Positions 13,787-56,999 of a stretch of DNA of 64,000 nt are shown one piece after another. Every line of letters begins with the position of its first letter. The first letter of the stretch is position 1. The position numbers and the translations under genes were made by a program. A model generated the notes under the pieces. That model saw nothing but the letters and a program-made list of their open reading frames with translations. It did no database searches and was not told the origin of the DNA. The stretch lies in NCBI GenBank assembly GCA_000004985.1, contig GG738898.1. The stretch is one strand, 5' to 3'. This DNA comes from Naegleria gruberi. Lineage: Eukaryota.

Positions 13787-16700
13787 CTATCTTTTCTGTT
13801 GCAGTTCGATAAATTTTCGAAGACCTTTAAAGTTGGGAAGTGGCTGAAGTTGGTTGAGGTTTAGCGACCTTAGAATGGAATTGACTTCTGAGAAGTGTAC
13901 ATTTGGAGGGTTGAGTTGAGGTTGGTGATCGAATATGAATGGTTCAATAGTGAGATTTTCACCAAGGTTCAAGTGCAATAAGCATTCATCATTAGGTGTT
14001 GATAGAACCTCAATGAAAGGGAAGATTGAAGAGTGCATAATTCTCTGATGAAGAGAAATCGAAAAAAGGAAAATTCCATTCATGGTGAAGTAAACCTCAC
14101 CTTGCTCTGTCAAACCACATCCAATTGTATCTCCACAATGTGCAATTATTTCCAATTCCTTATAAAGTATTTCCTTTTTATCGGCAGACATTATACAGCC
14201 GAATCCTTCCTGTGCCTGAAATGCATATTTTCTATCAACACAATTATTCTCACTAATGTTTGATCTGGCCATCAGTCCAATAGAAACCTTGGAGGATATC
14301 AATCGATGGATTTGAACTTCATAGTAGAATACAGTTTTCATGGAGGGTTTTCTAATGTTGGCAGATGGATTACCAAATCGCCTAGTTTCTGCAATTTCTG
14401 GTTGGAAAAAGAAGAGAGAATCTTTGGTGGTTAGTGACATTTTGGTAGCTCTAGAAGAAACAAAGTGTAGAGTTCGTTCATTATCCAATACCTTGAGTGG
14501 TGATCCTTGAAGATTTACAAGGTGTGAAAAATCTGCTTTGGTTTCAATAGGTACTGGACTATAGTTTCCAAGGTAGTGGTTGATGAGCTCTTTTTCATTT
14601 CCAAGAGTACTGTTTGGATGGTTATCAAAGTGGAAAACCTTGATATCGTTAGGATTCAAATTGTTACAGAGTAAATGATAAATCAATGTTTGTCTATCAA
14701 CGTAGGAGTAATTTTTCAAAAGGCCGAAAGTTAACAGACCACTACCGGTTGGAATGAGATAGTACATGCTATTTGGAAGTCCACATACATTATTATCTCC
14801 AACTATTGCCCCGAATTTCGTATTTCCAATTGTATGGTAGGTTGTAAACTTTTCAAGACTGAAGAAATCATAGAGGAAATTATTCATTACTCCTAGTACT
14901 CTATCTGCAGCACTCTCATCACCAGTGTCAAGAGCCAAGTTCAGTATCTTGGCAAGTTTTTGCCACACTGGTTTGATGATTGCTCTTCTGTGATGGAAAG
15001 GAATCTCATTGAAAACCTCGACTAGTATTGGCTCGATATTGTAATTTGGAGAAAGTAGAGTGGCATAGCCTGGTTCAATGAGTGAAATGTATGTATAGAT
15101 TCCTCTCAATAATTGAGTCTTTTTCTCTGAAAGTGGATCTGAAGATCTGCCAATTTTGCTTTGATTTCTTTCGAGCCACAAACAATAACCAACACGAGTT
15201 GACTTGTCATATTTGCAAAGGAAGAAGATTATTTTCAAGCAGGAAAGGGTGAAGAAAAATTCTGGACTATGGAAAACCTTGGCATGGATAAAATTCAAAA
15301 TACAAGTTGTGGAATATCTTCCCAATTCGTCAACAAGTAAGGAGGAGGTTTCATTTCTCATTTCTCTGATTATTCTCTTAATGTGTCTCTTATCTGTTTG
15401 ATTGTCATAGTATGTGAGTACTTGAGAAATTATACTCAGTGTGCTCTTGAAAATCTCATCATACATCTCATTCAACTCTACACTTGACTCTGTGTGAGCT
15501 CGATCTGAGAATAATTTTCTGGAAATGTAGAACATCAAAACGGGGAGGACTCTATACTCTGACATTAATTCGCAACATTTCTGCCGTAATTTTTCATTGG
15601 AGAGCAAGTCTTTCATGCCAAGAATGGATTTCTTAACAAAAAGACTGCTTGTGTCAAGTCCACTCAAAAATCCTAACAAGGATTCCGGCTTACTGAGAAT
15701 ATTCAACAATTGAGATGAGTCATTCTCAAAGATGAATCTCCATGTTTGTATGACTGGGTGTTCTAATAGTTCAGCTGCACTTTTTCTTTCCTCCCTAGCA
15801 CACACCATCATTTTCACAATTCTTTTTGATCCAATGTCAAATACATGTTCATGAATAAACTCAAAGTAGTGATTCGAACGCATAAATAACCAAAAGTCAA
15901 TATTATACCGTCTTGCTCTTTGATCGATTAATTGTTGGAAATCCTTCACAGTTAAAGTAGCCGAAACTTGCATAAAGATAATTCCTAGACTGTAAACATC
16001 AACTTTGTAATCATATTCAGCTCCAGGTTTAACCTCAGGAGCAACATAGGCCCGAGTACCACAAATAGTTGATGTAGAGTTTTGATGAACAAGTTGCTTA
16101 GCAAGACCAAAATCAATAATTTTCAAAGTAATCTTTCTAATTTCTTCCTCAAAATTATTCTTTAAATTATCAGAATCATATTGCACAATAATGTTTTGCG
16201 GTTTCAAATCTCTGTGAATAACCTTATTTTGATGGAGATAATTCATGACTTCGAGTAATTTGATGAACCATGAGAATCTGACATCCATGGTCAAAGTTTT
16301 GAGACCCTTACTTTCCTTTGTAATTTCATTCAAATCAGAAATAAACTGATCCAATATTTTACCACTACAATATTCCATAAGAATGCAGTAGTATCTCTTG
16401 TTAATGTCCATGAATGAGTCATAATATTTCACAATATTTGGATGATCCAGCATCATCATTAATTTCACTTCCTTTTCCTGATAGTCATTGATTGTGATTC
16501 TTTTTAGAGCAAAAATTCTATTGGTTCCAACTTGGACAACTCTGAATACAGTTCCATAAGATCCTTCTCCTAACTGCTCAAGTAGTTGGAAGGATTTTGT
16601 TTTCTTGNNNNNNNNNNNNNNNNNNNNNNNNNNNNNNNNNNNNNNNNNNNNNNNNNNATCGAAAGAGTTTGCGTTTCCGTTCATTACAAAATTCTTTTGG

Positions 16701-20547: not shown

Positions 20548-22281
20548 TTATTCTTCATCATTTTCAACTTCGACAATATTTTCATCATCCACAAGTACGT
20601 CCATGACATCTTCAACATCTTCGACCTTTTCTTCAGTAAAGATCATTTGCTTTTCTGCCAAGTTTCTATAGATACCTTGTGGAATCTTAATGAGCTCGCT
20701 GTGAGTGCCCTTTTCTTTCATGACACCCTTAACTAAGACACAGATAACATCTGAATTAATGACAGTTGTCAATCTGTGAGCAATACAAATGGTTGTTCTT
20801 CCCTTCATCAATTCATCCAAAGCAGCTTGAACTAATCTTTCAGATTCAGTATCGAGAGCAGATGTGGCTTCATCCAATAAGAGAATCTTTGGATCTTGCA
20901 AGAGAGCTCTTGCAATGGCAATTCTTTGTTTTTGACCACCAGACAAGGAAACACCCTTTTCACCCAAAATAGTGTCATACTTTTCAGGCAAATCCATAAT
21001 AAAGCTGTGAGCATTAGCTCTCTTGGCAGCATTTTCAACTTGTTCCATGGTGACAACTTTACCAGATTCGACACTATCATTAGGACCTAACAAGGCATAG
21101 GCAATGTTATATTTGATTGTTCCAGCAAATAATACAGGTTCTTGTGAGACAATACCCAAACAATTTCTGTGCAACCACATTGGATCGAGCTCAGCAACAT
21201 CAACTCCATCAATCTTAATTGTACCCTTATTTGGAGTATAGAATTTTTCTAAAAGACCTACAATGGTTGACTTGCCTGAACCTGATGGACCAACCAAAGC
21301 AATTTGTTGACCAGATTTGATATCCAAACTGAAATCAGTCATGACATTAGTATTTGGACGAGATGGGTAAGCGAAATCAACTCCAGTAATTTCAATATCA
21401 CCCTTAACTTGTTCAATCTTCTTACCACCCATGAATGGAATGGCTGGTTCTCNNNNNNNNNNNNNNNNNNNNNNNNNNNNNNNNNNNNNNNNNNNNNNNN
21501 NNGACATTGTATGTGAGAACAGAAAGTAAGTGGTGAGGTACTGACAAGAATGAGAGCCATTCTCCAATTGACAGTCATACTCAAAATGAAACCAACAATA
21601 AATTGAATGATTTCTTGCATGAAAATGAAGAATTCGTTTGTGTAAACATCTTGAATCTTTGGAATATCTTCACTGAGAACTACAGTGACACTACCAATCT
21701 TCTTAATATCGAAGAAACTCATTTCTTGTTTAGCCAATGCTGACATGTAAGCTCTTCTCATTGAAGTTCCCAATCTGGCATTTGACAATTGCAAGAAGAA
21801 ATGTTGCATACCGAAAGCAGCCATACCACAGAATGTAAGAATAGTGAGCTTTTTACAGAGATCGTCAACTGCTTCATAAGCAAGAGCTGTTTTCTGTTCT
21901 GTTGTTAAGGTTGATGATGTGGCATTTGCAAAACTGTCAATCAAATCTCCCAAAATATATTGAACAACTAGAATAAGGTTAATACTATTTGAAATTCGAA
22001 TACTATTACTACATACTAATAGGAATCAAACCATAAGCCATTGCACCAATACATCCAATAGCGATCAGTAAACAATTCCATCCAAAAATTCTCAACATGT
22101 GTAAATGAGAGAAGAAACCAATCTTTGGTTCTCTGTCATCTTTGATTTCATCACCAACTGGTTGTTGTTTCTTTGATTTCTTTGAAGTGTCATCTCTTTT
22201 TCTTCTCCTAATGATACGTTGTCTTCTTGTTGGTTGTTGCACTTCTTCCTTATTTTCAGGATTATCACTTTGAGCTGGCAT
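20548..22281 (-). CDS. ABCB-type (MDR/TAP-like) half-transporter, TMD plus NBD; partial because of an internal 50-nt N gap
   Basis: Exon 1 22281..22017 (MPAQSDNPENKEE…AYGLIPI). 49-nt intron GTATGT…TCTAG at 21968..22016. Exon 2 runs from 21967. The TMD is …GDLIDSF… plus transmembrane helices. The N gap 21453..21502 falls between TMD and NBD. The NBD has Walker A GPSGSGKST, signature LSGGQKQRIAIARAL, Walker B ILLLDEATSALD and H-loop IAHRL. Ends in TAA. Confidence 0.75.
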
Positions 22282-41911: not shown

Positions 41912-42397
<486 letters not shown>

Positions 42398-42898
42398 TCA
42401 ACAAATTTTTAATAATTTTATTCTGGAGGTGGTTGATAAGCACAACAAGGAGACTTTACAATGAAAACTTTTGGAAGGGGCATTTTTACTGCAGCAGGAT
42501 ATTTTAAGAAGCTTTGGGATCGCCTCTTCAACTCTCGGCTCCACTGACTGTATTATTTGGATTTGATACAAGTGGCTAGAGAGAAATTAACCACCACAAT
42601 GAATGAAACCAATTAATTGTCATTGAGCAACATTGGCTGTTTGAAATTGAATTCAATTTCATGATGGAGTATCAAACCACTTTTATACATTTCAAACTGT
42701 TTCACATTATGATTGAACCAACAATAACCAACACCAATTATTAATTACTCCAACCAATTACAACATTCTCAATATCACATTCATAATTCCAATCTACTCC
42801 AATTCTCTTCCCCATTGGTTCTAATAGCAGCCTTCCTTAAACGATGTTGAGGAGGGAAAGGAGGATGAACATTAAAACTTCCTGCAACCAATCAAAAA

Positions 42899-44683
42899 AT
42901 GCAAAACGATCAAGGACTCCATGCAACATTCTCTTCAGTCGATGAGAACAAGATAAAGATTTGTTTTGTTATGATTGATGGTATTGGAGAGGTTAATATT
43001 GAAGAGTTGGGAAAGAAGACTGCATTGCAAAGTGCTCAAACTCCGAACATGGATCGTTTGGCAGGTAAGAGGATTATTAAATCATCAATTTATTGATTAT
43101 TTAAATTATAATAATAATAATAACATTGCTTGGATGGTTAATCATATTAATTTATAATGTTGATAACTAATTATTGGATTAATAATTATTTGGAAATTAA
43201 TTGAAATTATTATTCGGAAAAAGCTTGTGGTGTAAATGGCTTGATGGATCCTGTTCAACCTGGATTGGCTTGTGGTAGTGATACTGCGCACATGAGTATC
43301 TTTGGTTATGATCCGAGATTGTAAGTTGATTTAACCTTCGAATAGTAGTTTGTTAAATAGTTATTATTGTTATTATTTGACAATATAATTTGTTAATATA
43401 TTTACATCATTACGGACAACAATATCTACTCTGAATTTTGAATTACATTGAACGTAATCCATCTGAATATTATTATTATCCAATTCTATACTCATGAACA
43501 ATAATTTATTATTAATTATTTCTTATTTTCCAATTCAATACTGTCATGTTATTATTTATATTATTATAATAGACACTATAAGGGAAGAGGAAGTTTTGAA
43601 ACTATCGGAGCAGGTCTTGACATGTCTCCAGGTGATATTGCATTCAAGAGTAATTTTGCAACATGGAATTCAAAAACCAATATTGTTGAATTGAGAAGAG
43701 CAGATAGACATTTTGAAGAGATGGGACCAATTCTCTGTGACTATCTTCAACAACAATGTGAAGAGAAGGGGTTCAATGCCAAACATAATTGTACAGTCTC
43801 TATAAAATATGCAACAGAACACAGATGTGGAGTTAAGGTGAGCGGAAAGAATTTGAGTGGTGACATTACTGGAACTGATCCACTTGTGGATGATTTGGAA
43901 CTTGTAAAATGTGAACCTGTTAAGGGACTCAAAGGAGAGGAATTGGAAAAAGCTAAAAGAACAAGTGATCTCGTCAATGATCTTTCACACTTTATCTATG
44001 AACAACTCTCTAAACATGAAATTAACAAACAGAGAAAACAAGAAGGAAAGAATGAAGCCAATATAGTCTTATTGAGAGGTTGTGGTGTTTGTATAGATGT
44101 ACCACCATTCTCAGAGAGACATCCAGGATTGAGAGGTATGTTGGTTGCTCCAACTGCTATCATTGCTGGTCTGGGCAAGAGTGTTGGTATGGAATTGAAA
44201 AAAGTCGAAGGTGCAAGTGGAGATTATCGTACCAATTTAACCAAGAAGGGTAAAGGATTTTTGGAACATTTGGTGAATGGTGATGAATTTAATTTTGGTT
44301 TCTGTCATATTAAGGCAGTTGATGATACTGGTCATGATGGAAATTTTGTTTTAAAGAAGGAATTTATTGAAAAATCAGATCAAATGATTGGTATGCTTAT
44401 GGATGAATTTGAAAAGAGAAAACAACGAGTAGTATTTGTCATTACTGGAGATCACTCTACACCTTGCTATTACAAGGATCATAGTTATGAACCAGTTCCA
44501 TTAATTATTTCTGGCAATTATCTCAACTTGGAACAATATCCAGAGTTGACTGACTCAACAAAATCATTCGATGAAGTCTTTTCTCAAGGCTCCTTAGGCA
44601 GATTCACAGGAGCTCAAGTTTTTGACATTATTCGAAATTATGTCAATGTGACAACTGCTAACAAGAATTATTTCAAATTTTAA
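42899..44683 (+). CDS. apgM: Archaeal-type 2,3-bisphosphoglycerate-independent phosphoglycerate mutase (ApgM / PhosphMutase+Metalloenzyme), 3 exons
   Basis: Exon 1 42899..43064 (…TPNMDRLAG). 159-nt intron at 43065..43223. Exon 2 43224..43320 ([32 protein letters not shown]). 252-nt AT-rich intron at 43321..43572 (GTAAGT…TATAATAG). Exon 3 43573..44683 ([32 protein letters not shown]… with GDHSTP and [10 protein letters not shown]). All are family hallmarks. TAA stop. Confidence 0.8.
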
Positions 44684-44712
44684 ACGAGTATTTCATTCTA
44701 ACAATAAATTAT

Positions 44713-46211
44713 TTATTTCCATTCGAAATCTCCTGTGAGTTTGTTGAAGAGGTAATCTTTGCCATCCAAGTGCATGATACCACATTTGAGAGTACACTTC
44801 CATCTATTCTTGTGACGAGTGACCTTTTCATATTGGGCAAGAATAATGTTAGGGGTATCAGGATCCTTATCATCCTCAACGTCATCATCAGATCCTAATT
44901 CTTCTTCTCCAGTGGAAGCGGCACTCTTAGATGGTTCCTCTTCTTCTTCATCTTCTTCAGAGTCATCGTCTTCATCGTCTTCGTCGTCGTCATCATTTGC
45001 ACCATCATATTGTCTAAAGTTAGGATTATTATTATTGCCTAGTCTTGCATCATTAGAATTTGGATCCAACCTTAATCTCTTGTTGGTATCCAAAGGACTA
45101 GTGTAAGCAGGTGATTCTATTGAGGAAGAACTGAATGGTGTACCATATGGATTTGGTGAGTAAGCTGGAGGTAACATTGAACCAATGGAAGGAAGAGAAT
45201 TCTGGCCAAATTGTGGAGATTGAATACTTGGGAGAGTATTTTCACGAGCTTGTGGTAAGCTAAGAGGAGATTGATTTCTTCCCAAAATTGGATTTGAACT
45301 AAAAGAGACAGGAGGCATGTAACTTTCAGGTCTTCCAAATGAAGATATGGACTAGAGGCCATGAAATCAGATTTTGGAGTTGAAAAGGATGGAGGTGGAA
45401 TATTAGGCATACCATAAGGTGATTGAATTGGAGTTACTGGTGGAGGTAATGAAATTGTGCTACTGAAAATAGAGTTTGGTGTAGATGATGATGGAGTTGT
45501 TGCAGCAGGTAGAGAAGGAAGTGAAAGACCACCTCCACTTGCCAAGATGCCACCTCCAGTACTACTCGATAAGATGCCTCCACCACTACTATTACTTGGT
45601 GTATTGTAGAGTGGATTTGTTGGTGTGGAAATGTTATGATGATGTGCAGATGAGAGTGGAGAAATTGAAGGTAAACCAGGACTAATTGAAGGCAGACTTG
45701 GCATTGCCCCACTGAGAATGCCAGAAGAAAAACCTGGAGGTGGACCCAAATTTGGATTTGAAAAGGATGGAGGTGGAATTCTTGGTTGTGGAGGCATAAA
45801 TTCACTTGGAGTTCCAGCAACAATTGGTAATGTTGGAGCATGGTTACCACCGAGGATATCTTGTGATTGATTGATTTGGGTGGATTGAGTTCCGAGCTGA
45901 GAAGATTGTGTTGGAATTGCAGTGTTACTTGAAGAAGCAGCTGCATTTTGATTTCTTGATCTGGCTGCATTTCTCGAAGCAGCAGCACCTCTATTTGAAC
46001 CTCTCGAACTAGATTGTCCAGGGGTAATATTCCAAGCAGGTACAGCTCCACTTTCTCCAATTTTGTCTCCCCAAAGTTTCTTCAATTCATTTATAACATC
46101 GGAGTTGTAACCTTCCTCAACAAATATTTCTTGAATACCGGCAGCAACTTCATCAATCAGAGAACGATAAAAGTCAGCCACTAATTTTTCGTGGTTGGAA
46201 ACAGAAGACAT
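44713..46211 (-). CDS. TFIIA large subunit (TOA1/GTF2A1-like), frameshifted in the low-complexity middle
   Basis: The N-terminal four-helix region is MSSVSNHEKLVADFYRSLIDEVAAGIQEIFVEEGYNSDVINELKKLWGDKI. A long Ser/Pro/Asn-rich linker and an acidic stretch follow. The C-terminal beta-barrel region is …ILAQYEKVTRHKNRWKCTLKCGIMHLDGKDYLFNKLTGDFEW. The frame changes near 45330-45375, between track ORFs 45117..46211 and 44713..45318. No compatible intron fits; an indel is likely. TAA stop. Confidence 0.6.
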
Positions 46212-48327: not shown

Positions 48328-48427
48328 NNNNNNNNNNNNNNNNNNNNNNNNNNNNNNNNNNNNNNNNNNNNNNNNNNGCAGCAGATTGGCTGTTTATTGT
48401 TAGTAATTTATGATATCATTAGAATCG

Positions 48428-51829: not shown

Positions 51830-52455
51830 TTCATCTTCCTCTTGGATGAGATCGAAAGAATTGGTATCAAGGGATGGGAAAGATTCATCATCTTCCTCTT
51901 CTTCCTACTGTGCCCAAAATCAGCCAATTTGATAGTTCCACTCTTGGTTTCTATTAAAATATTACCTCCCTTGATGTCTCTGTGGATAATATTCTTATCA
52001 TGTATTTCAAACCAAACAGTGTTTGTCTTGTATATTGTCTTACTACACTTTCATCAAGTTTGCCAACATTTTTGAGAACGACTTCCACCATCTATCAACT
52101 GTGATTCGATCCTAAATAGTAGTAAGCAAATATGTAGATTACTGAGATAAACTGGGTAGTTTCCATCATGTTATTACAACGACAATTTTTGAATTTTTCT
52201 ACAATATTTCAATGAAAGATTCCTCACCATTGAATAGTTCATGCACAGCTCCTTAACTGCTGATGAATGATGATAATTCAGAGCTTTCAGTAATAATTTC
52301 GTTATGACCTCTTCTCCAAATAATCACATCTACAATTCATCAAGTGGTAAATCATCTACTAACTTGCTGTATTCTTGAATAATTCTAGTGTAATAAGTTG
52401 TTTCCACATCGAACTCAGCCAAGGAATCCAAAAACTTCTTATCATGTTCACTAAA
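51830..52455 (-). CDS. Partial STE/MAP3K-like Ser/Thr kinase (catalytic subdomains V–VII only); 5' part lost in the 4.2 kb gap
   Basis: The minus strand reads …[16 protein letters not shown], then after an interruption [59 protein letters not shown]. An in-frame TAA and at least one intron or frame change are unresolved. The sequence after DFG does not continue as kinase subdomain VIII in any single frame. Confidence 0.35.
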
Positions 52456-55400
52456 NNNNNNNNNNNNNNNNNNNNNNNNNNNNNNNNNNNNNNNNNNNNN
52501 NNNNNNNNNNNNNNNNNNNNNNNNNNNNNNNNNNNNNNNNNNNNNNNNNNNNNNNNNNNNNNNNNNNNNNNNNNNNNNNNNNNNNNNNNNNNNNNNNNNN
52601 NNNNNNNNNNNNNNNNNNNNNNNNNNNNNNNNNNNNNNNNNNNNNNNNNNNNNNNNNNNNNNNNNNNNNNNNNNNNNNNNNNNNNNNNNNNNNNNNNNNN
52701 NNNNNNNNNNNNNNNNNNNNNNNNNNNNNNNNNNNNNNNNNNNNNNNNNNNNNNNNNNNNNNNNNNNNNNNNNNNNNNNNNNNNNNNNNNNNNNNNNNNN
52801 NNNNNNNNNNNNNNNNNNNNNNNNNNNNNNNNNNNNNNNNNNNNNNNNNNNNNNNNNNNNNNNNNNNNNNNNNNNNNNNNNNNNNNNNNNNNNNNNNNNN
52901 NNNNNNNNNNNNNNNNNNNNNNNNNNNNNNNNNNNNNNNNNNNNNNNNNNNNNNNNNNNNNNNNNNNNNNNNNNNNNNNNNNNNNNNNNNNNNNNNNNNN
53001 NNNNNNNNNNNNNNNNNNNNNNNNNNNNNNNNNNNNNNNNNNNNNNNNNNNNNNNNNNNNNNNNNNNNNNNNNNNNNNNNNNNNNNNNNNNNNNNNNNNN
53101 NNNNNNNNNNNNNNNNNNNNNNNNNNNNNNNNNNNNNNNNNNNNNNNNNNNNNNNNNNNNNNNNNNNNNNNNNNNNNNNNNNNNNNNNNNNNNNNNNNNN
53201 NNNNNNNNNNNNNNNNNNNNNNNNNNNNNNNNNNNNNNNNNNNNNNNNNNNNNNNNNNNNNNNNNNNNNNNNNNNNNNNNNNNNNNNNNNNNNNNNNNNN
53301 NNNNNNNNNNNNNNNNNNNNNNNNNNNNNNNNNNNNNNNNNNNNNNNNNNNNNNNNNNNNNNNNNNNNNNNNNNNNNNNNNNNNNNNNNNNNNNNNNNNN
53401 NNNNNNNNNNNNNNNNNNNNNNNNNNNNNNNNNNNNNNNNNNNNNNNNNNNNNNNNNNNNNNNNNNNNNNNNNNNNNNNNNNNNNNNNNNNNNNNNNNNN
53501 NNNNNNNNNNNNNNNNNNNNNNNNNNNNNNNNNNNNNNNNNNNNNNNNNNNNNNNNNNNNNNNNNNNNNNNNNNNNNNNNNNNNNNNNNNNNNNNNNNNN
53601 NNNNNNNNNNNNNNNNNNNNNNNNNNNNNNNNNNNNNNNNNNNNNNNNNNNNNNNNNNNNNNNNNNNNNNNNNNNNNNNNNNNNNNNNNNNNNNNNNNNN
53701 NNNNNNNNNNNNNNNNNNNNNNNNNNNNNNNNNNNNNNNNNNNNNNNNNNNNNNNNNNNNNNNNNNNNNNNNNNNNNNNNNNNNNNNNNNNNNNNNNNNN
53801 NNNNNNNNNNNNNNNNNNNNNNNNNNNNNNNNNNNNNNNNNNNNNNNNNNNNNNNNNNNNNNNNNNNNNNNNNNNNNNNNNNNNNNNNNNNNNNNNNNNN
53901 NNNNNNNNNNNNNNNNNNNNNNNNNNNNNNNNNNNNNNNNNNNNNNNNNNNNNNNNNNNNNNNNNNNNNNNNNNNNNNNNNNNNNNNNNNNNNNNNNNNN
54001 NNNNNNNNNNNNNNNNNNNNNNNNNNNNNNNNNNNNNNNNNNNNNNNNNNNNNNNNNNNNNNNNNNNNNNNNNNNNNNNNNNNNNNNNNNNNNNNNNNNN
54101 NNNNNNNNNNNNNNNNNNNNNNNNNNNNNNNNNNNNNNNNNNNNNNNNNNNNNNNNNNNNNNNNNNNNNNNNNNNNNNNNNNNNNNNNNNNNNNNNNNNN
54201 NNNNNNNNNNNNNNNNNNNNNNNNNNNNNNNNNNNNNNNNNNNNNNNNNNNNNNNNNNNNNNNNNNNNNNNNNNNNNNNNNNNNNNNNNNNNNNNNNNNN
54301 NNNNNNNNNNNNNNNNNNNNNNNNNNNNNNNNNNNNNNNNNNNNNNNNNNNNNNNNNNNNNNNNNNNNNNNNNNNNNNNNNNNNNNNNNNNNNNNNNNNN
54401 NNNNNNNNNNNNNNNNNNNNNNNNNNNNNNNNNNNNNNNNNNNNNNNNNNNNNNNNNNNNNNNNNNNNNNNNNNNNNNNNNNNNNNNNNNNNNNNNNNNN
54501 NNNNNNNNNNNNNNNNNNNNNNNNNNNNNNNNNNNNNNNNNNNNNNNNNNNNNNNNNNNNNNNNNNNNNNNNNNNNNNNNNNNNNNNNNNNNNNNNNNNN
54601 NNNNNNNNNNNNNNNNNNNNNNNNNNNNNNNNNNNNNNNNNNNNNNNNNNNNNNNNNNNNNNNNNNNNNNNNNNNNNNNNNNNNNNNNNNNNNNNNNNNN
54701 NNNNNNNNNNNNNNNNNNNNNNNNNNNNNNNNNNNNNNNNNNNNNNNNNNNNNNNNNNNNNNNNNNNNNNNNNNNNNNNNNNNNNNNNNNNNNNNNNNNN
54801 NNNNNNNNNNNNNNNNNNNNNNNNNNNNNNNNNNNNNNNNNNNNNNNNNNNNNNNNNNNNNNNNNNNNNNNNNNNNNNNNNNNNNNNNNNNNNNNNNNNN
54901 NNNNNNNNNNNNNNNNNNNNNNNNNNNNNNNNNNNNNNNNNNNNNNNNNNNNNNNNNNNNNNNNNNNNNNNNNNNNNNNNNNNNNNNNNNNNNNNNNNNN
55001 NNNNNNNNNNNNNNNNNNNNNNNNNNNNNNNNNNNNNNNNNNNNNNNNNNNNNNNNNNNNNNNNNNNNNNNNNNNNNNNNNNNNNNNNNNNNNNNNNNNN
55101 NNNNNNNNNNNNNNNNNNNNNNNNNNNNNNNNNNNNNNNNNNNNNNNNNNNNNNNNNNNNNNNNNNNNNNNNNNNNNNNNNNNNNNNNNNNNNNNNNNNN
55201 NNNNNNNNNNNNNNNNNNNNNNNNNNNNNNNNNNNNNNNNNNNNNNNNNNNNNNNNNNNNNNNNNNNNNNNNNNNNNNNNNNNNNNNNNNNNNNNNNNNN
55301 NNNNNNNNNNNNNNNNNNNNNNNNNNNNNNNNNNNNNNNNNNNNNNNNNNNNNNNNNNNNNNNNNNNNNNNNNNNNNNNNNNNNNNNNNNNNNNNNNNNN

Positions 55401-56688
55401 NNNNNNNNNNNNNNNNNNNNNNNNNNNNNNNNNNNNNNNNNNNNNNNNNNNNNNNNNNNNNNNNNNNNNNNNNNNNNNNNNNNNNNNNNNNNNNNNNNNN
55501 NNNNNNNNNNNNNNNNNNNNNNNNNNNNNNNNNNNNNNNNNNNNNNNNNNNNNNNNNNNNNNNNNNNNNNNNNNNNNNNNNNNNNNNNNNNNNNNNNNNN
55601 NNNNNNNNNNNNNNNNNNNNNNNNNNNNNNNNNNNNNNNNNNNNNNNNNNNNNNNNNNNNNNNNNNNNNNNNNNNNNNNNNNNNNNNNNNNNNNNNNNNN
55701 NNNNNNNNNNNNNNNNNNNNNNNNNNNNNNNNNNNNNNNNNNNNNNNNNNNNNNNNNNNNNNNNNNNNNNNNNNNNNNNNNNNNNNNNNNNNNNNNNNNN
55801 NNNNNNNNNNNNNNNNNNNNNNNNNNNNNNNNNNNNNNNNNNNNNNNNNNNNNNNNNNNNNNNNNNNNNNNNNNNNNNNNNNNNNNNNNNNNNNNNNNNN
55901 NNNNNNNNNNNNNNNNNNNNNNNNNNNNNNNNNNNNNNNNNNNNNNNNNNNNNNNNNNNNNNNNNNNNNNNNNNNNNNNNNNNNNNNNNNNNNNNNNNNN
56001 NNNNNNNNNNNNNNNNNNNNNNNNNNNNNNNNNNNNNNNNNNNNNNNNNNNNNNNNNNNNNNNNNNNNNNNNNNNNNNNNNNNNNNNNNNNNNNNNNNNN
56101 NNNNNNNNNNNNNNNNNNNNNNNNNNNNNNNNNNNNNNNNNNNNNNNNNNNNNNNNNNNNNNNNNNNNNNNNNNNNNNNNNNNNNNNNNNNNNNNNNNNN
56201 NNNNNNNNNNNNNNNNNNNNNNNNNNNNNNNNNNNNNNNNNNNNNNNNNNNNNNNNNNNNNNNNNNNNNNNNNNNNNNNNNNNNNNNNNNNNNNNNNNNN
56301 NNNNNNNNNNNNNNNNNNNNNNNNNNNNNNNNNNNNNNNNNNNNNNNNNNNNNNNNNNNNNNNNNNNNNNNNNNNNNNNNNNNNNNNNNNNNNNNNNNNN
56401 NNNNNNNNNNNNNNNNNNNNNNNNNNNNNNNNNNNNNNNNNNNNNNNNNNNNNNNNNNNNNNNNNNNNNNNNNNNNNNNNNNNNNNNNNNNNNNNNNNNN
56501 NNNNNNNNNNNNNNNNNNNNNNNNNNNNNNNNNNNNNNNNNNNNNNNNNNNNNNNNNNNNNNNNNNNNNNNNNNNNNNNNNNNNNNNNNNNNNNNNNNNN
56601 NNNNNNNNNNNNNNNNNNNNNNNNNNNNNNNNNNNNNNNNNNNNNNNNNNNNNNNNNNNNNNNNNNNNNNNNNNNNNNNNNNNNNNNN
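52456..56688. other. Assembly gap (4233 N)
   Basis: A continuous run of n. The three giant track ORFs (52359..56747, 52375..56700, 52451..56734) are artefacts of translating N. Additional 50-nt gaps lie at 16608..16657, 21453..21502 and 48328..48377. There is one ambiguous base at 60277. Confidence 0.99.
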
Positions 56689-56999
56689 TGCAGACGATGA
56701 TAGTTACGAGAATTGTGAATGACAGCAGATTCAAATCGAGCCATCAAAACTTGAATTCTATTCTACAACCTCATTGGAAGAGTAATGACGAAGTGTTTTG
56801 GCTGAGACAAAACTTAAGACATCTCCATCGGATAGTCTATCGCCAACTTCATAGTTACGTCTAATCTCCTTGATAGTAGTTAGAACCCATGCCTTTTTAC
56901 CTCATGAAGTTTTAATCTGCTAAATTAACTTTTCAAATTCTTAGCTCAATGTTCATCACATGTCTTCCATCAACACACAATTATTTTACAATAAAAAAA

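What the first reader, a model, noticed from the sequence alone, without database searches (positions are those of the whole stretch)
42899..44683. Archaeal-type cofactor-independent phosphoglycerate mutase (ApgM) encoded by a three-exon eukaryotic gene
The protein has the ApgM hallmarks (RLA…GLMDPV.PG…GSDTAH.S.FGYDP; GDHSTP; HSYEPVPLI). These differ from both the animal/fungal dPGM and the bacterial/plant GpmI-type iPGM. Two canonical GT-AG introns (159 and 252 nt) interrupt the conserved N-terminal domain. The neighbours are typical eukaryotic genes, ubiquitin-S27a and TFIIA. So this is a resident nuclear gene rather than prokaryotic contamination. It is a candidate lateral acquisition of a glycolytic enzyme.
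Basis: partly seen in the sequence, partly recalled or inferred. Interest (0 to 1): 0.55.

Follow-up and report, generated by a model that had tools for sequence, protein, structure and literature searches.

The report
Naegleria's ancient archaeal-type phosphoglycerate mutase gene
The three-exon gene is real and encodes an archaeal-type cofactor-independent phosphoglycerate mutase, but it is the already annotated Naegleria gruberi gene XP_002672332.1 and belongs to a family found across eukaryotes and inherited from their common ancestor, so it is not a recent lateral acquisition.

Summary
Exons 42899-43064, 43224-43320 and 43573-44683, split by GT-AG introns of 159 and 252 nt, give a 457-aa protein. 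It passes the ApgM thresholds (TIGR00306, PF10143 and PF01676) and aligns end to end with the solved Pyrococcus ApgM (2zkt). The product is residue-for-residue identical to XP_002672332.1, 'cofactor-independent phosphoglycerate mutase [Naegleria gruberi]', so the gene is already annotated.

It is a resident nuclear gene. The locus is colinear with N. fowleri, and both introns are conserved there.

- The best 120 homologues are all eukaryotic: Heterolobosea, Mucoromycota, chytrids, dictyostelids, Anaeramoeba, oomycetes, green algae and land plants.
- In my tree a 79-member eukaryote-type clade has 100% bootstrap support, and Heterolobosea form a 100% subclade inside it.
- Both Naegleria introns sit at the same codon and phase as introns in Mucor and in a green alga.
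- A 2025 paper infers APGM in the last eukaryotic common ancestor (LECA), sister to Asgard archaea.

The genus also has a canonical cofactor-dependent mutase, dPGM (N. fowleri, PDB 5VVE).

Verdict: real, ordinary, already known.

The parts
42899..43064 (+). Exon 1 of the ApgM-type gene (ATG at 42899; ends in codon phase 1). It encodes the N-terminal metal-ligand motif MIDGIGE (D27).
43065..43223 (+). Intron 1: 159 nt, GTAAG...AAAG, GC 17%, phase 1. The position is shared with N. fowleri, Willaertia, Mucor and the green alga Myrmecia.
43224..43320 (+). Exon 2 (97 nt). It encodes [27 protein letters not shown], which contains the presumed phosphoserine nucleophile S74.
43321..43572 (+). Intron 2: 252 nt, GTAAG...ATAG, GC 20%, phase 2. 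The position is shared with N. fowleri, Mucor and Myrmecia.
43573..44683 (+). Exon 3 (1111 nt including the TAA stop). It encodes the rest of the PhosphMutase insert domain and the C-terminal metal-ligand motifs DDTGHD, GDHSTP and DHSYEPVP.
42377..42898 (.). A 522-bp intergenic region between the divergently transcribed ubiquitin-S27a and ApgM genes. It is presumably a shared promoter region (inference only).
41912..42376 (-). Upstream neighbour: the ubiquitin-ribosomal protein S27a fusion gene (XP_002672394.1).
44713..46211 (-). Downstream neighbour, convergent, with stop codons 29 bp apart: the TFIIA alpha/beta subunit gene. It lies in two overlapping ORFs in different frames, so at least one intron lies around 45117-45318. 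The exact splice sites were not determined.

Best explanation
This is the resident nuclear gene of Naegleria gruberi already annotated as XP_002672332.1. It encodes an ApgM-type, 2,3-bisphosphoglycerate-independent phosphoglycerate mutase of the alkaline-phosphatase (metalloenzyme) superfamily.

Inferred mechanism: two divalent metal ions are held by D27, D338/H342, D381-H382 and H391. They activate S74 in the GSDTAH motif. S74 takes the phosphate from 3-phosphoglycerate as a phosphoserine intermediate and returns it to the 2-hydroxyl of the reoriented glycerate, giving 2-phosphoglycerate (reversible).

Evolution: the gene belongs to a eukaryote-wide ApgM clade that was already intron-bearing in an early eukaryotic ancestor. 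It was inherited vertically into Heterolobosea. According to published work the clade derives from the Asgard-archaeal host lineage. It was not acquired laterally by the Naegleria lineage.

Shown here: gene structure, family membership, conservation of the catalytic motifs, identity with the annotated protein, synteny, the eukaryote-wide clade and the shared introns. Inferred: the enzyme activity and its role in glycolysis.
For: - Gene model and splice sites.
- Exact identity with XP_002672332.1 on a 310,422-bp N. gruberi scaffold.
- ApgM thresholds passed.
- Full-length alignment to P. horikoshii ApgM 2zkt (residues 21-446 against 7-405, E 6e-76), with GSDTAH and TGDHSTP identical and DG.G, D..GHD and HS..PVPL retained.
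- The same residues are invariant in 12 diverse eukaryotic orthologues.
- The best 120 homologues are all eukaryotic: N. fowleri 80%, Willaertia 73%, Acrasis 57%, Mucoromycota about 52%, dictyostelids about 48%, Anaeramoeba 48%, plants about 45%.
- Neighbour-joining (NJ) tree of 133 sequences, 403 columns, 200 bootstraps: eukaryote-type clade 100%, Heterolobosea 100%, streptophytes 98%, dictyostelids 100%, fungi 82%.
- Borderline clade members sit on eukaryotic contigs (neighbours Tim17 and ETF-QO; EMP24, SUN and Mlp1), and one is from Carpediemonas.
- The nearest prokaryote-type proteins reach at most 41% identity. All seven whose source gives a name are Archaea; five of them are named to a group (Promethearchaeota, Thermococcus, Micrarchaeota, Thermoproteota and an unnamed 'Candidatus' lineage among them).
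- Introns at alignment column 71 phase 1 and column 103 phase 2 occur in N. gruberi, N. fowleri, Mucor circinelloides and Myrmecia bisecta. Further positions are shared among Mucor, Medicago, Dictyostelium and Anaeramoeba. The chance of a double coincidence under uniform placement is about 3-5e-5.
- Colinear synteny with N. fowleri.
- Published LECA/Asgard inference for APGM (89% UFBoot): PMC11976288.
Against: - No enzymology exists for any eukaryotic ApgM-type protein that I could find.
- The protein scores below the NCBIfam equivalog cut-offs for the archaeal enzymes (NF003104: 389.7 bits against 489). Function therefore transfers only at subfamily level.
- The family also contains non-PGM enzymes, a proposed homoserine kinase and PhpG.
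- The genus has a canonical dPGM (N. fowleri 5VVE), so this enzyme need not carry the glycolytic flux.
- My NJ tree does not resolve which archaea are sister to the eukaryotic clade (8-35% support). The Asgard origin rests on the published analysis alone.
- Deep branches inside the eukaryotic clade are unresolved, so some eukaryote-to-eukaryote transfer cannot be excluded.
Confidence: 0.88

Rival explanations
1. One reading: the Naegleria lineage, or Heterolobosea, took an ApgM gene laterally from an archaeon or bacterium, and the gene then gained two spliceosomal introns.
For: The family is archaeal in type, and the closest solved structures are archaeal. Its distribution in eukaryotes is patchy, with no animals or Dikarya among the hits.
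Against: The 120 closest homologues are all eukaryotic at 43-80% identity, while the best prokaryote-type proteins reach at most 41%. The eukaryote-type clade has 100% bootstrap support. Both introns lie at the same codon and phase as introns in a fungus and a green alga, which independent gain after a lineage-specific transfer does not explain. The eukaryote-specific motifs ACGSDTAH[ML] and DIAFK[SC]NF gave one confirmed hit in one genome each of 185,579 prokaryotic species, and that hit looks like a eukaryotic exon fragment.
Confidence: 0.03
2. The locus is prokaryotic contamination, or a chimeric join in the assembly.
For: The window has assembly gaps (N runs at 16608-16657, 21453-21502, 48328-48377 and 52456-56688).
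Against: No gap lies within 3.6 kb of the gene. The same gene order (histidine kinase, acetyltransferase, ubiquitin-S27a, ApgM, TFIIA) is found in the independently assembled N. fowleri genome. An independent metagenome contig is 98.6% identical over 43228-44769, covering nearly all of exon 2, intron 2, exon 3 and the start of the TFIIA 3' end. The gene has spliceosomal introns, and its GC3 of 0.27 lies within the window's range.
Confidence: 0.01
3. The gene is ancestral in eukaryotes, but the eukaryotic ApgM-type protein is not, or not mainly, a glycolytic phosphoglycerate mutase. It would use the same phosphoserine/metal chemistry on another phosphorylated substrate, or act in a specialised pathway.
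For: It co-occurs with canonical PGMs: a dPGM in N. fowleri, and GpmI-type iPGAM1/2 in Arabidopsis, whose double knockout is severe although four genes, including At3g30840 and At4g09520, are annotated as iPGAMs. That these two are ApgM-type is my recollection and was not tested. Eukaryote-specific invariant motifs ([17 protein letters not shown]) are missing from most archaeal-type members. Some eukaryotic members are fused to GGACT/AIG2-like or FAD-dependent oxidoreductase (DAO) domains. The score is below the equivalog cut-offs, and the family includes non-PGM enzymes.
Against: All catalytic and metal-ligand motifs of the archaeal enzymes are retained. The best family models are the PGM ones. 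The published analysis treats it as an isofunctional EMP enzyme retained differentially. The fusions may be gene-model artefacts and come from unidentified lineages.
Confidence: 0.2
4. The eukaryotic clade arose from a single ancient transfer from an archaeon into one early eukaryotic lineage and then spread by eukaryote-to-eukaryote transfer. On this view it was not inherited from the Asgard host through LECA.
For: The distribution is patchy. Deep nodes inside the eukaryotic clade are unresolved in my tree, and the sister group is unresolved too (8-35% support).
Against: Major groups are recovered as clades in line with organismal relationships: Heterolobosea with Acrasis outside Willaertia plus Naegleria, fungi, streptophytes and dictyostelids. 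Intron positions are shared among Discoba, Opisthokonta, Amoebozoa, Archaeplastida and Metamonada. The published tree gives a LECA clade sister to Asgardarchaeota.
Confidence: 0.08

Closest known systems
XP_002672332.1 / EFC39588.1 / UniRef D2VU94, 'cofactor-independent phosphoglycerate mutase [Naegleria gruberi]'
   Same: Identical over all 457 residues, so the annotated three-exon model is the same gene model.
   Different: Nothing. The finding is this annotated gene.
Eukaryotic APGM orthogroup (a LECA clade in Nat Ecol Evol 2025, PMC11976288). Examples: N. fowleri FDP41_011744, Willaertia ABK040_005202, Acrasis kona, Mucor HMPREF1544_04979, and proteins of Dictyostelium, Anaeramoeba, Medicago and Chara.
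   Same: 43-80% identity over the full length. Shared invariant motifs [20 protein letters not shown](S/T)TP and H(S/T)xEPVP. Shared intron positions.
   Different: The Naegleria and Willaertia proteins have a short N-terminal extension and lack the C-terminal insertion of the plant and algal proteins. Naegleria keeps only 2 of the ancestral-looking introns, and Acrasis keeps none.
Archaeal ApgM, i.e. TIGR00306/PRK04024 enzymes. Solved structures: 2zkt (Pyrococcus horikoshii according to my memory of the entry) and 3kd8/3idd.
   Same: Same two-domain architecture (PF01676 core with a PF10143 insert). Colinear full-length alignment. Identical GSDTAH and TGDHSTP motifs.
   Different: At most about 41% identity to the closest archaeal representatives. 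The score is below the archaeal equivalog cut-offs. There are eukaryote-specific conserved Cys-containing motifs and spliceosomal introns.
GpmI-type iPGM (TIGR01307, e.g. PDB 5kgl/5kgn/7knf) and dPGM (GpmA/PGAM1, e.g. N. fowleri 5VVE)
   Same: The same overall reaction is presumed. GpmI shares the alkaline-phosphatase-superfamily core and the N-terminal metal and Ser motifs (weak match over residues 19-81).
   Different: GpmI has a different substrate-binding insert domain (20.4 bits against a cutoff of 330.65). dPGM is an unrelated histidine-phosphatase fold, and no match to it was found.

Membership tests
ApgM-type cofactor-independent phosphoglycerate mutase (TIGR00306; PF10143 + PF01676) | Scores above the curated thresholds of the family models | tested here: met
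   TIGR00306 scores 352.4 bits (cutoff 320). PF10143 scores 156.6 (cutoff 21.5). PF01676 scores 134.8 (cutoff 24.3)..
ApgM-type cofactor-independent phosphoglycerate mutase (TIGR00306; PF10143 + PF01676) | Full-length colinear similarity to a solved ApgM structure | tested here: met
   2zkt_A: E 6.3e-76, query residues 21-446 against chain residues 7-405. 3kd8 and 3idd: E about 4e-68..
ApgM-type cofactor-independent phosphoglycerate mutase (TIGR00306; PF10143 + PF01676) | Nucleophilic Ser and metal-ligand Asp/His motifs of the alkaline-phosphatase superfamily core (DG.G, GSD, D...H, DH, H) | tested here: met
   D27, S74-D75, D338/D339...H342, D381-H382 and H391 are invariant in 12 eukaryotic orthologues and align with the same motifs in 2zkt. 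The assignment of roles rests on established knowledge of the superfamily, not on a test here.
ApgM-type cofactor-independent phosphoglycerate mutase (TIGR00306; PF10143 + PF01676) | Equivalog-level match to the characterised archaeal enzymes (NF003104 / NF003160 / NF003242) | tested here: not met
   389.7 bits against a cutoff of 489, 246.3 against 468, and 222 against 426. Membership therefore holds at subfamily level only.
ApgM-type cofactor-independent phosphoglycerate mutase (TIGR00306; PF10143 + PF01676) | Catalyses 3PG/2PG interconversion without 2,3-bisphosphoglycerate | not testable with these tools
   This needs recombinant enzyme assays. I found no enzymology for any eukaryotic member.
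Eukaryote-wide (LECA) APGM clade | Branches inside a well-supported clade made only of eukaryotic sequences | tested here: met
   The 79-member clade has 100% bootstrap support, and Heterolobosea have 100% inside it. The unnamed borderline members that I checked lie on eukaryotic contigs. The published LECA clade.
Eukaryote-wide (LECA) APGM clade | Intron positions shared with distant eukaryotes | tested here: met
   Column 71 phase 1 and column 103 phase 2 are shared by N. gruberi, N. fowleri, Mucor and Myrmecia.
[quoted passage not shown] | Closest relatives are prokaryotic, and the gene is nested in a prokaryotic donor clade apart from other eukaryotes | tested here: not met
   All 120 best hits are eukaryotic. 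The best prokaryote-type proteins reach at most 41% identity and fall outside the eukaryotic clade.
GpmI-type iPGM (TIGR01307 / iPGM_N) | Score above the family threshold and presence of the iPGM_N insert domain | tested here: not met
   TIGR01307 scores 20.4 bits against 330.65, over residues 20-64 only. There is no PF06415 hit.
dPGM (histidine phosphatase superfamily) | His_Phos_1 domain with the RHGE motif | tested here: not met
   No such Pfam hit. A tblastn search of human PGAM1 against the window finds nothing.

The most novel reading that the evidence does not exclude
The eukaryote-wide ApgM-type enzyme may not be a redundant glycolytic mutase. It may be a conserved enzyme with a distinct, still uncharacterised substrate or role, and that role could explain why it persists beside canonical PGMs. 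Three observations leave this open: its eukaryote-specific invariant Cys-containing motifs, its recurrent fusions to GGACT/AIG2-like and FAD-oxidoreductase domains in some lineages, and its co-occurrence with dPGM or GpmI. A smaller point: this Asgard-derived gene carries at least two to four introns shared across eukaryotic supergroups, so it is a clean marker of intron gain before LECA.
Probability: 0.2. Interest if true: 0.45.

Novelty: already known. Interest (0 to 1): 0.15.

Why it matters
There is little here beyond confirmation. The gene has been in the N. gruberi annotation under the same three-exon model since the genome was deposited. The intron-position evidence gathered here is a small, independent line of support for that view. 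It shows that the family's patchy distribution comes from loss or replacement and not from lineage-specific transfer. The real open question is biochemical: what this enzyme does in organisms that also have a canonical PGM. That may bear on Naegleria metabolism, where glycolytic enzymes are considered drug targets in N. fowleri.

Tried and rejected
1. Scanning one genome each of 185,579 prokaryotic species with patterns from the eukaryotic alignment gave no usable outgroup. The patterns chosen (ACGSDTAH[ML], DIAFK[SC]NF) are eukaryote-specific. The one confirmed hit is a 66-nt fragment at the end of a MAG contig, and it looks like a eukaryotic exon.

2. I took outgroups from the 50%-identity representative search instead. 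That library has no names, so I needed cluster look-ups. Many representatives are unnamed Logan, ENA or JGI sequences.

3. My NJ tree could not resolve which archaea are sister to the eukaryotic clade (8-35% support). No maximum-likelihood software is installed. I therefore did not confirm the Asgard sister relationship independently.

4. I could not search the rest of the N. gruberi assembly for dPGM or GpmI, because only the window is available and it contains neither. I used the N. fowleri dPGM structure 5VVE as genus-level evidence.

5. The supplements of PMC11976288 are not held, so I could not check whether Naegleria is listed in its APGM clade.

6. Literature searches found no enzymology for any eukaryotic ApgM-type protein.

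7. I considered structure prediction and fold search and did not run them. The sequence match to solved ApgM structures (E 6e-76) already settles the fold.
Full report

Yes. The region 42899-44683 on the + strand holds three coding segments. Joined at 43064|43224 and 43320|43573, they form one open frame of 1374 nt (457 codons plus TAA). The two intervening segments are 159 and 252 nt long. Both begin with GTAAG and end with AG. They have 17% and 20% G+C, against 36-44% in the exons, and reading through the first one meets several stop codons at once.

Pfam finds PhosphMutase (PF10143, 156.6 bits) inserted in the Metalloenzyme core (PF01676, 134.8 bits). NCBIfam TIGR00306 'apgM' is passed (352.4 bits, cutoff 320). 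The GpmI model TIGR01307 scores only 20.4 bits against a cutoff of 330.65, and no histidine-phosphatase (dPGM) domain is found.

The best solved structures are the ApgM entries 2zkt, 3kd8 and 3idd. The alignment to 2zkt covers residues 21-446, with GSDTAH and TGDHSTP identical.

**2. What and whose gene is it?**

An exact-sequence look-up shows that the spliced 457-aa product is identical from first to last residue to XP_002672332.1/EFC39588.1, 'cofactor-independent phosphoglycerate mutase [Naegleria gruberi]', on a 310,422-bp scaffold. Three other ORFs of the window are also exact N. gruberi proteins. The window is therefore N. gruberi, and the three-exon model is already the public annotation.

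**3. Resident gene or artefact?**

It is resident.

- The N. fowleri orthologue (80% identity) lies in a colinear block: histidine kinase, acetyltransferase, ubiquitin-S27a, ApgM, TFIIA. N. fowleri has two extra genes inserted between ubiquitin-S27a and ApgM.
- N. fowleri has two introns at exactly the same codons and phases. Its exon 2 is 97 nt, as in N. gruberi. Willaertia magna keeps the first intron only.
- An independent environmental contig (ERR1078381) is 98.6% identical over 43228-44769.
- The gene's GC3 of 0.27 falls within the window's range (mean 0.32, sd 0.06). Base composition is even along the window.
- The nearest assembly gap is a 50-N run at 48328-48377, 3.6 kb away. A 4233-N gap lies at 52456-56688.

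**4. Lateral acquisition?**

The evidence is against it, on three independent lines.

(a) *Similarity.* The best 120 of 1994 homologues are all eukaryotic: Heterolobosea (Naegleria, Willaertia, Acrasis), many Mucoromycota and Zoopagomycota, a blastoclad or chytrid, dictyostelids, Anaeramoeba, an oomycete, green algae, Chara and many land plants, at 43-80% identity. In an exhaustive phmmer search of 1.84 billion representatives, proteins with the eukaryote-type motifs ([17 protein letters not shown]) fill the top ranks. Prokaryote-type proteins first appear at 38-41% identity. Seven of the ten nearest prokaryote-type representatives I looked up carry a source name, and all seven names are archaeal. 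They include a Promethearchaeota (Asgard) MAG, Thermococcus, Micrarchaeota and Thermoproteota.

(b) *Phylogeny.* I built a neighbour-joining tree from 133 full-length sequences, 403 trimmed columns, Kimura distances and 200 bootstraps.
- All 79 eukaryote-type sequences form one clade with 100% support.
- Inside it, Heterolobosea have 100% support, with Acrasis outside Willaertia plus Naegleria.
- Streptophytes have 98%, dictyostelids 100%, and fungi 82%.
- Unnamed members near the base of the clade lie on contigs with plainly eukaryotic neighbours (Tim17 and ETF-QO; EMP24, a SUN-domain protein and Mlp1), or come from Carpediemonas.
- The eukaryote-specific peptide patterns are essentially absent from one genome each of 185,579 prokaryotic species.

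(c) *Introns.* I mapped the annotated introns of seven further orthologues onto an ungapped, highly conserved part of the alignment.

| Organism | Introns at the Naegleria positions | Other shared positions |
|---|---|---|
| N. gruberi, N. fowleri | column 71 phase 1; column 103 phase 2 | none |
| Willaertia magna | column 71 phase 1 | none |
| Acrasis kona | none (intronless) | none |
| Mucor circinelloides | column 71 phase 1; column 103 phase 2 | 129 phase 0; 165 phase 2; 249; 442 |
| Myrmecia bisecta (green alga) | column 71 phase 1; column 103 phase 2 | none (7 other introns) |
| Medicago | none | 129 phase 0 |
| Dictyostelium | none | 129 phase 0; 249; 442 |
| Anaeramoeba | none | 129 phase 0; 165 phase 2 |

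Both Naegleria introns thus coincide in column and phase with introns of a fungus and a green alga. Under uniform placement, the chance that both Naegleria introns coincide with introns of one such partner is about 3-5e-5. The gene was therefore already intron-bearing in a common ancestor of Discoba, Amorphea and Archaeplastida.

**5. Published context.**

'Chimeric origins and dynamic evolution of central carbon metabolism in eukaryotes' (Nat Ecol Evol 2025, PMC11976288) reports that APGM forms a putative LECA clade nested within Archaea, sister to Asgardarchaeota (89% UFBoot). It concludes that the enzyme was inherited from the asgardarchaeal ancestor. It explains the patchy distribution by replacement with bacterial-type analogues (PGMA/B) in some lineages. 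My tree agrees with the eukaryotic clade but does not resolve the sister group (8-35% support). I did not confirm the Asgard relationship independently.

**6. How it most likely works.**

*Shown.* The protein keeps every motif that carries the catalytic machinery in the alkaline-phosphatase superfamily core: D27 (DG.G), S74-D75 (GSD), D338/D339-H342, D381-H382 and H391. All are invariant in 12 diverse eukaryotic orthologues and aligned with the same motifs in the solved archaeal enzyme.

*Inferred, from established knowledge of cofactor-independent PGMs.* Two divalent metal ions activate the serine. The serine accepts the phosphate of 3-phosphoglycerate as a phosphoserine intermediate. The PF10143 insert domain holds and reorients the glycerate, and the phosphate returns to the 2-position.

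*Caveats.* The score is below the equivalog cut-offs for the characterised archaeal enzymes, and the wider family includes a proposed homoserine kinase and PhpG. I found no enzymology for any eukaryotic member.

The genus also has a canonical dPGM. N. fowleri NF0048460 (PDB 5VVE) is described as likely cofactor-dependent (PMC7990177), and it matches human PGAM1 at E 1.9e-104 over the full length. In Arabidopsis the double knockout of the two GpmI-type iPGAMs is severe although two further genes (At3g30840, At4g09520) are annotated as iPGAMs (PMC3193020). That those two are ApgM-type is my recollection and was not tested here. Which enzyme carries the glycolytic flux in Naegleria is unknown.

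**7. Comparison and novelty.**

The gene is a member of the ApgM subfamily and of the eukaryote-wide APGM orthogroup. It is not GpmI-type and not dPGM. It is already annotated, and the evolutionary history of its family has been published. The only addition here is the intron-position evidence, which supports pre-LECA ancestry independently. I rate it 'already known', with interest 0.15.

The most novel reading still open is that the eukaryotic ApgM-type enzymes have a function distinct from bulk glycolysis. The hints are their eukaryote-specific invariant motifs, their fusions to GGACT/AIG2-like and FAD-oxidoreductase domains in some unidentified eukaryotic lineages, and their co-occurrence with canonical PGMs. 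I give this a probability of about 0.2.

**8. Limits.**

- No maximum-likelihood software was available.
- The rest of the N. gruberi assembly could not be searched. The window itself contains no dPGM and no second ApgM copy.
- Splicing is supported by frame, splice sites, conservation and the public annotation, but not by transcript data.

Noticed in passing
Proteins P0160, P0169, P0177, P0254 confirmed by Pfam; P0175, P0181, P0197, P0198, P0267 by N-terminal resemblance only (not in the window): Several eukaryote-type ApgM representatives (615-1234 aa) carry an N-terminal GGACT/AIG2-like gamma-glutamyl cyclotransferase domain, with an 'FVYGTLKR' start. They are only about 40% identical to every named eukaryotic orthologue, so their lineage is unknown. 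The fusion could be real, or it could come from merged gene models.
   Followed up: partly
Proteins P0144 (1202 aa) and P0162 (986 aa), not in the window: Two eukaryote-type ApgM representatives are fused at the C-terminus to an FAD-dependent oxidoreductase (DAO, PF01266) domain. P0144 is closest to green-algal orthologues and P0162 to fungal ones. This may hint at a functional link, or the gene models may be merged.
   Followed up: partly
L001:1501-1566 (contig CALAYR010000155.1, an 'uncultured Acidimicrobiaceae' MAG, within about 150 nt of the contig end): A 66-nt stretch encodes the eukaryote-type peptide [17 protein letters not shown]. It is followed by GTGAGC exactly at the column-103 phase-2 intron position. 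The upstream sequence is not ApgM-like. It looks like a fragment of a GC-rich eukaryotic (algal?) exon joined chimerically to, or mis-binned in, a bacterial MAG.
   Followed up: partly
window 52456-56688; also 16608-16657, 21453-21502, 48328-48377: There are assembly gaps: one run of 4233 N and three runs of 50 N. The long 'ORFs' listed across 52359-56747 are artefacts of the N run.
   Followed up: yes
L002:3975-7835 (N. fowleri) against window 42377-42898: N. fowleri has two extra genes between ubiquitin-S27a and ApgM: one of 477 aa with no Pfam hit, and one of 648 aa with faint TPR hits. In N. gruberi these two neighbours are only 522 bp apart. This is a lineage-specific insertion or deletion within otherwise colinear synteny.
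   Followed up: no
L003:8152-8193 (Willaertia magna): The only annotated intron of the Willaertia orthologue is just 42 nt, a multiple of three, and tblastn reads through it in frame. It sits at the conserved column-71 phase-1 position, but whether it is really spliced is uncertain.
   Followed up: no
window 41912-42376 (-): UniRef names this protein 'Ubiquitin-ribosomal protein eL40 fusion protein'. Its C-terminal domain matches Ribosomal_S27a (eS31; PF01599, 71.9 bits), so the UniRef name appears to be wrong.
   Followed up: yes
window 44684-44712: The stop codons of the convergent ApgM and TFIIA genes are only 29 bp apart, so the two 3' UTRs must overlap or be extremely short.
   Followed up: no
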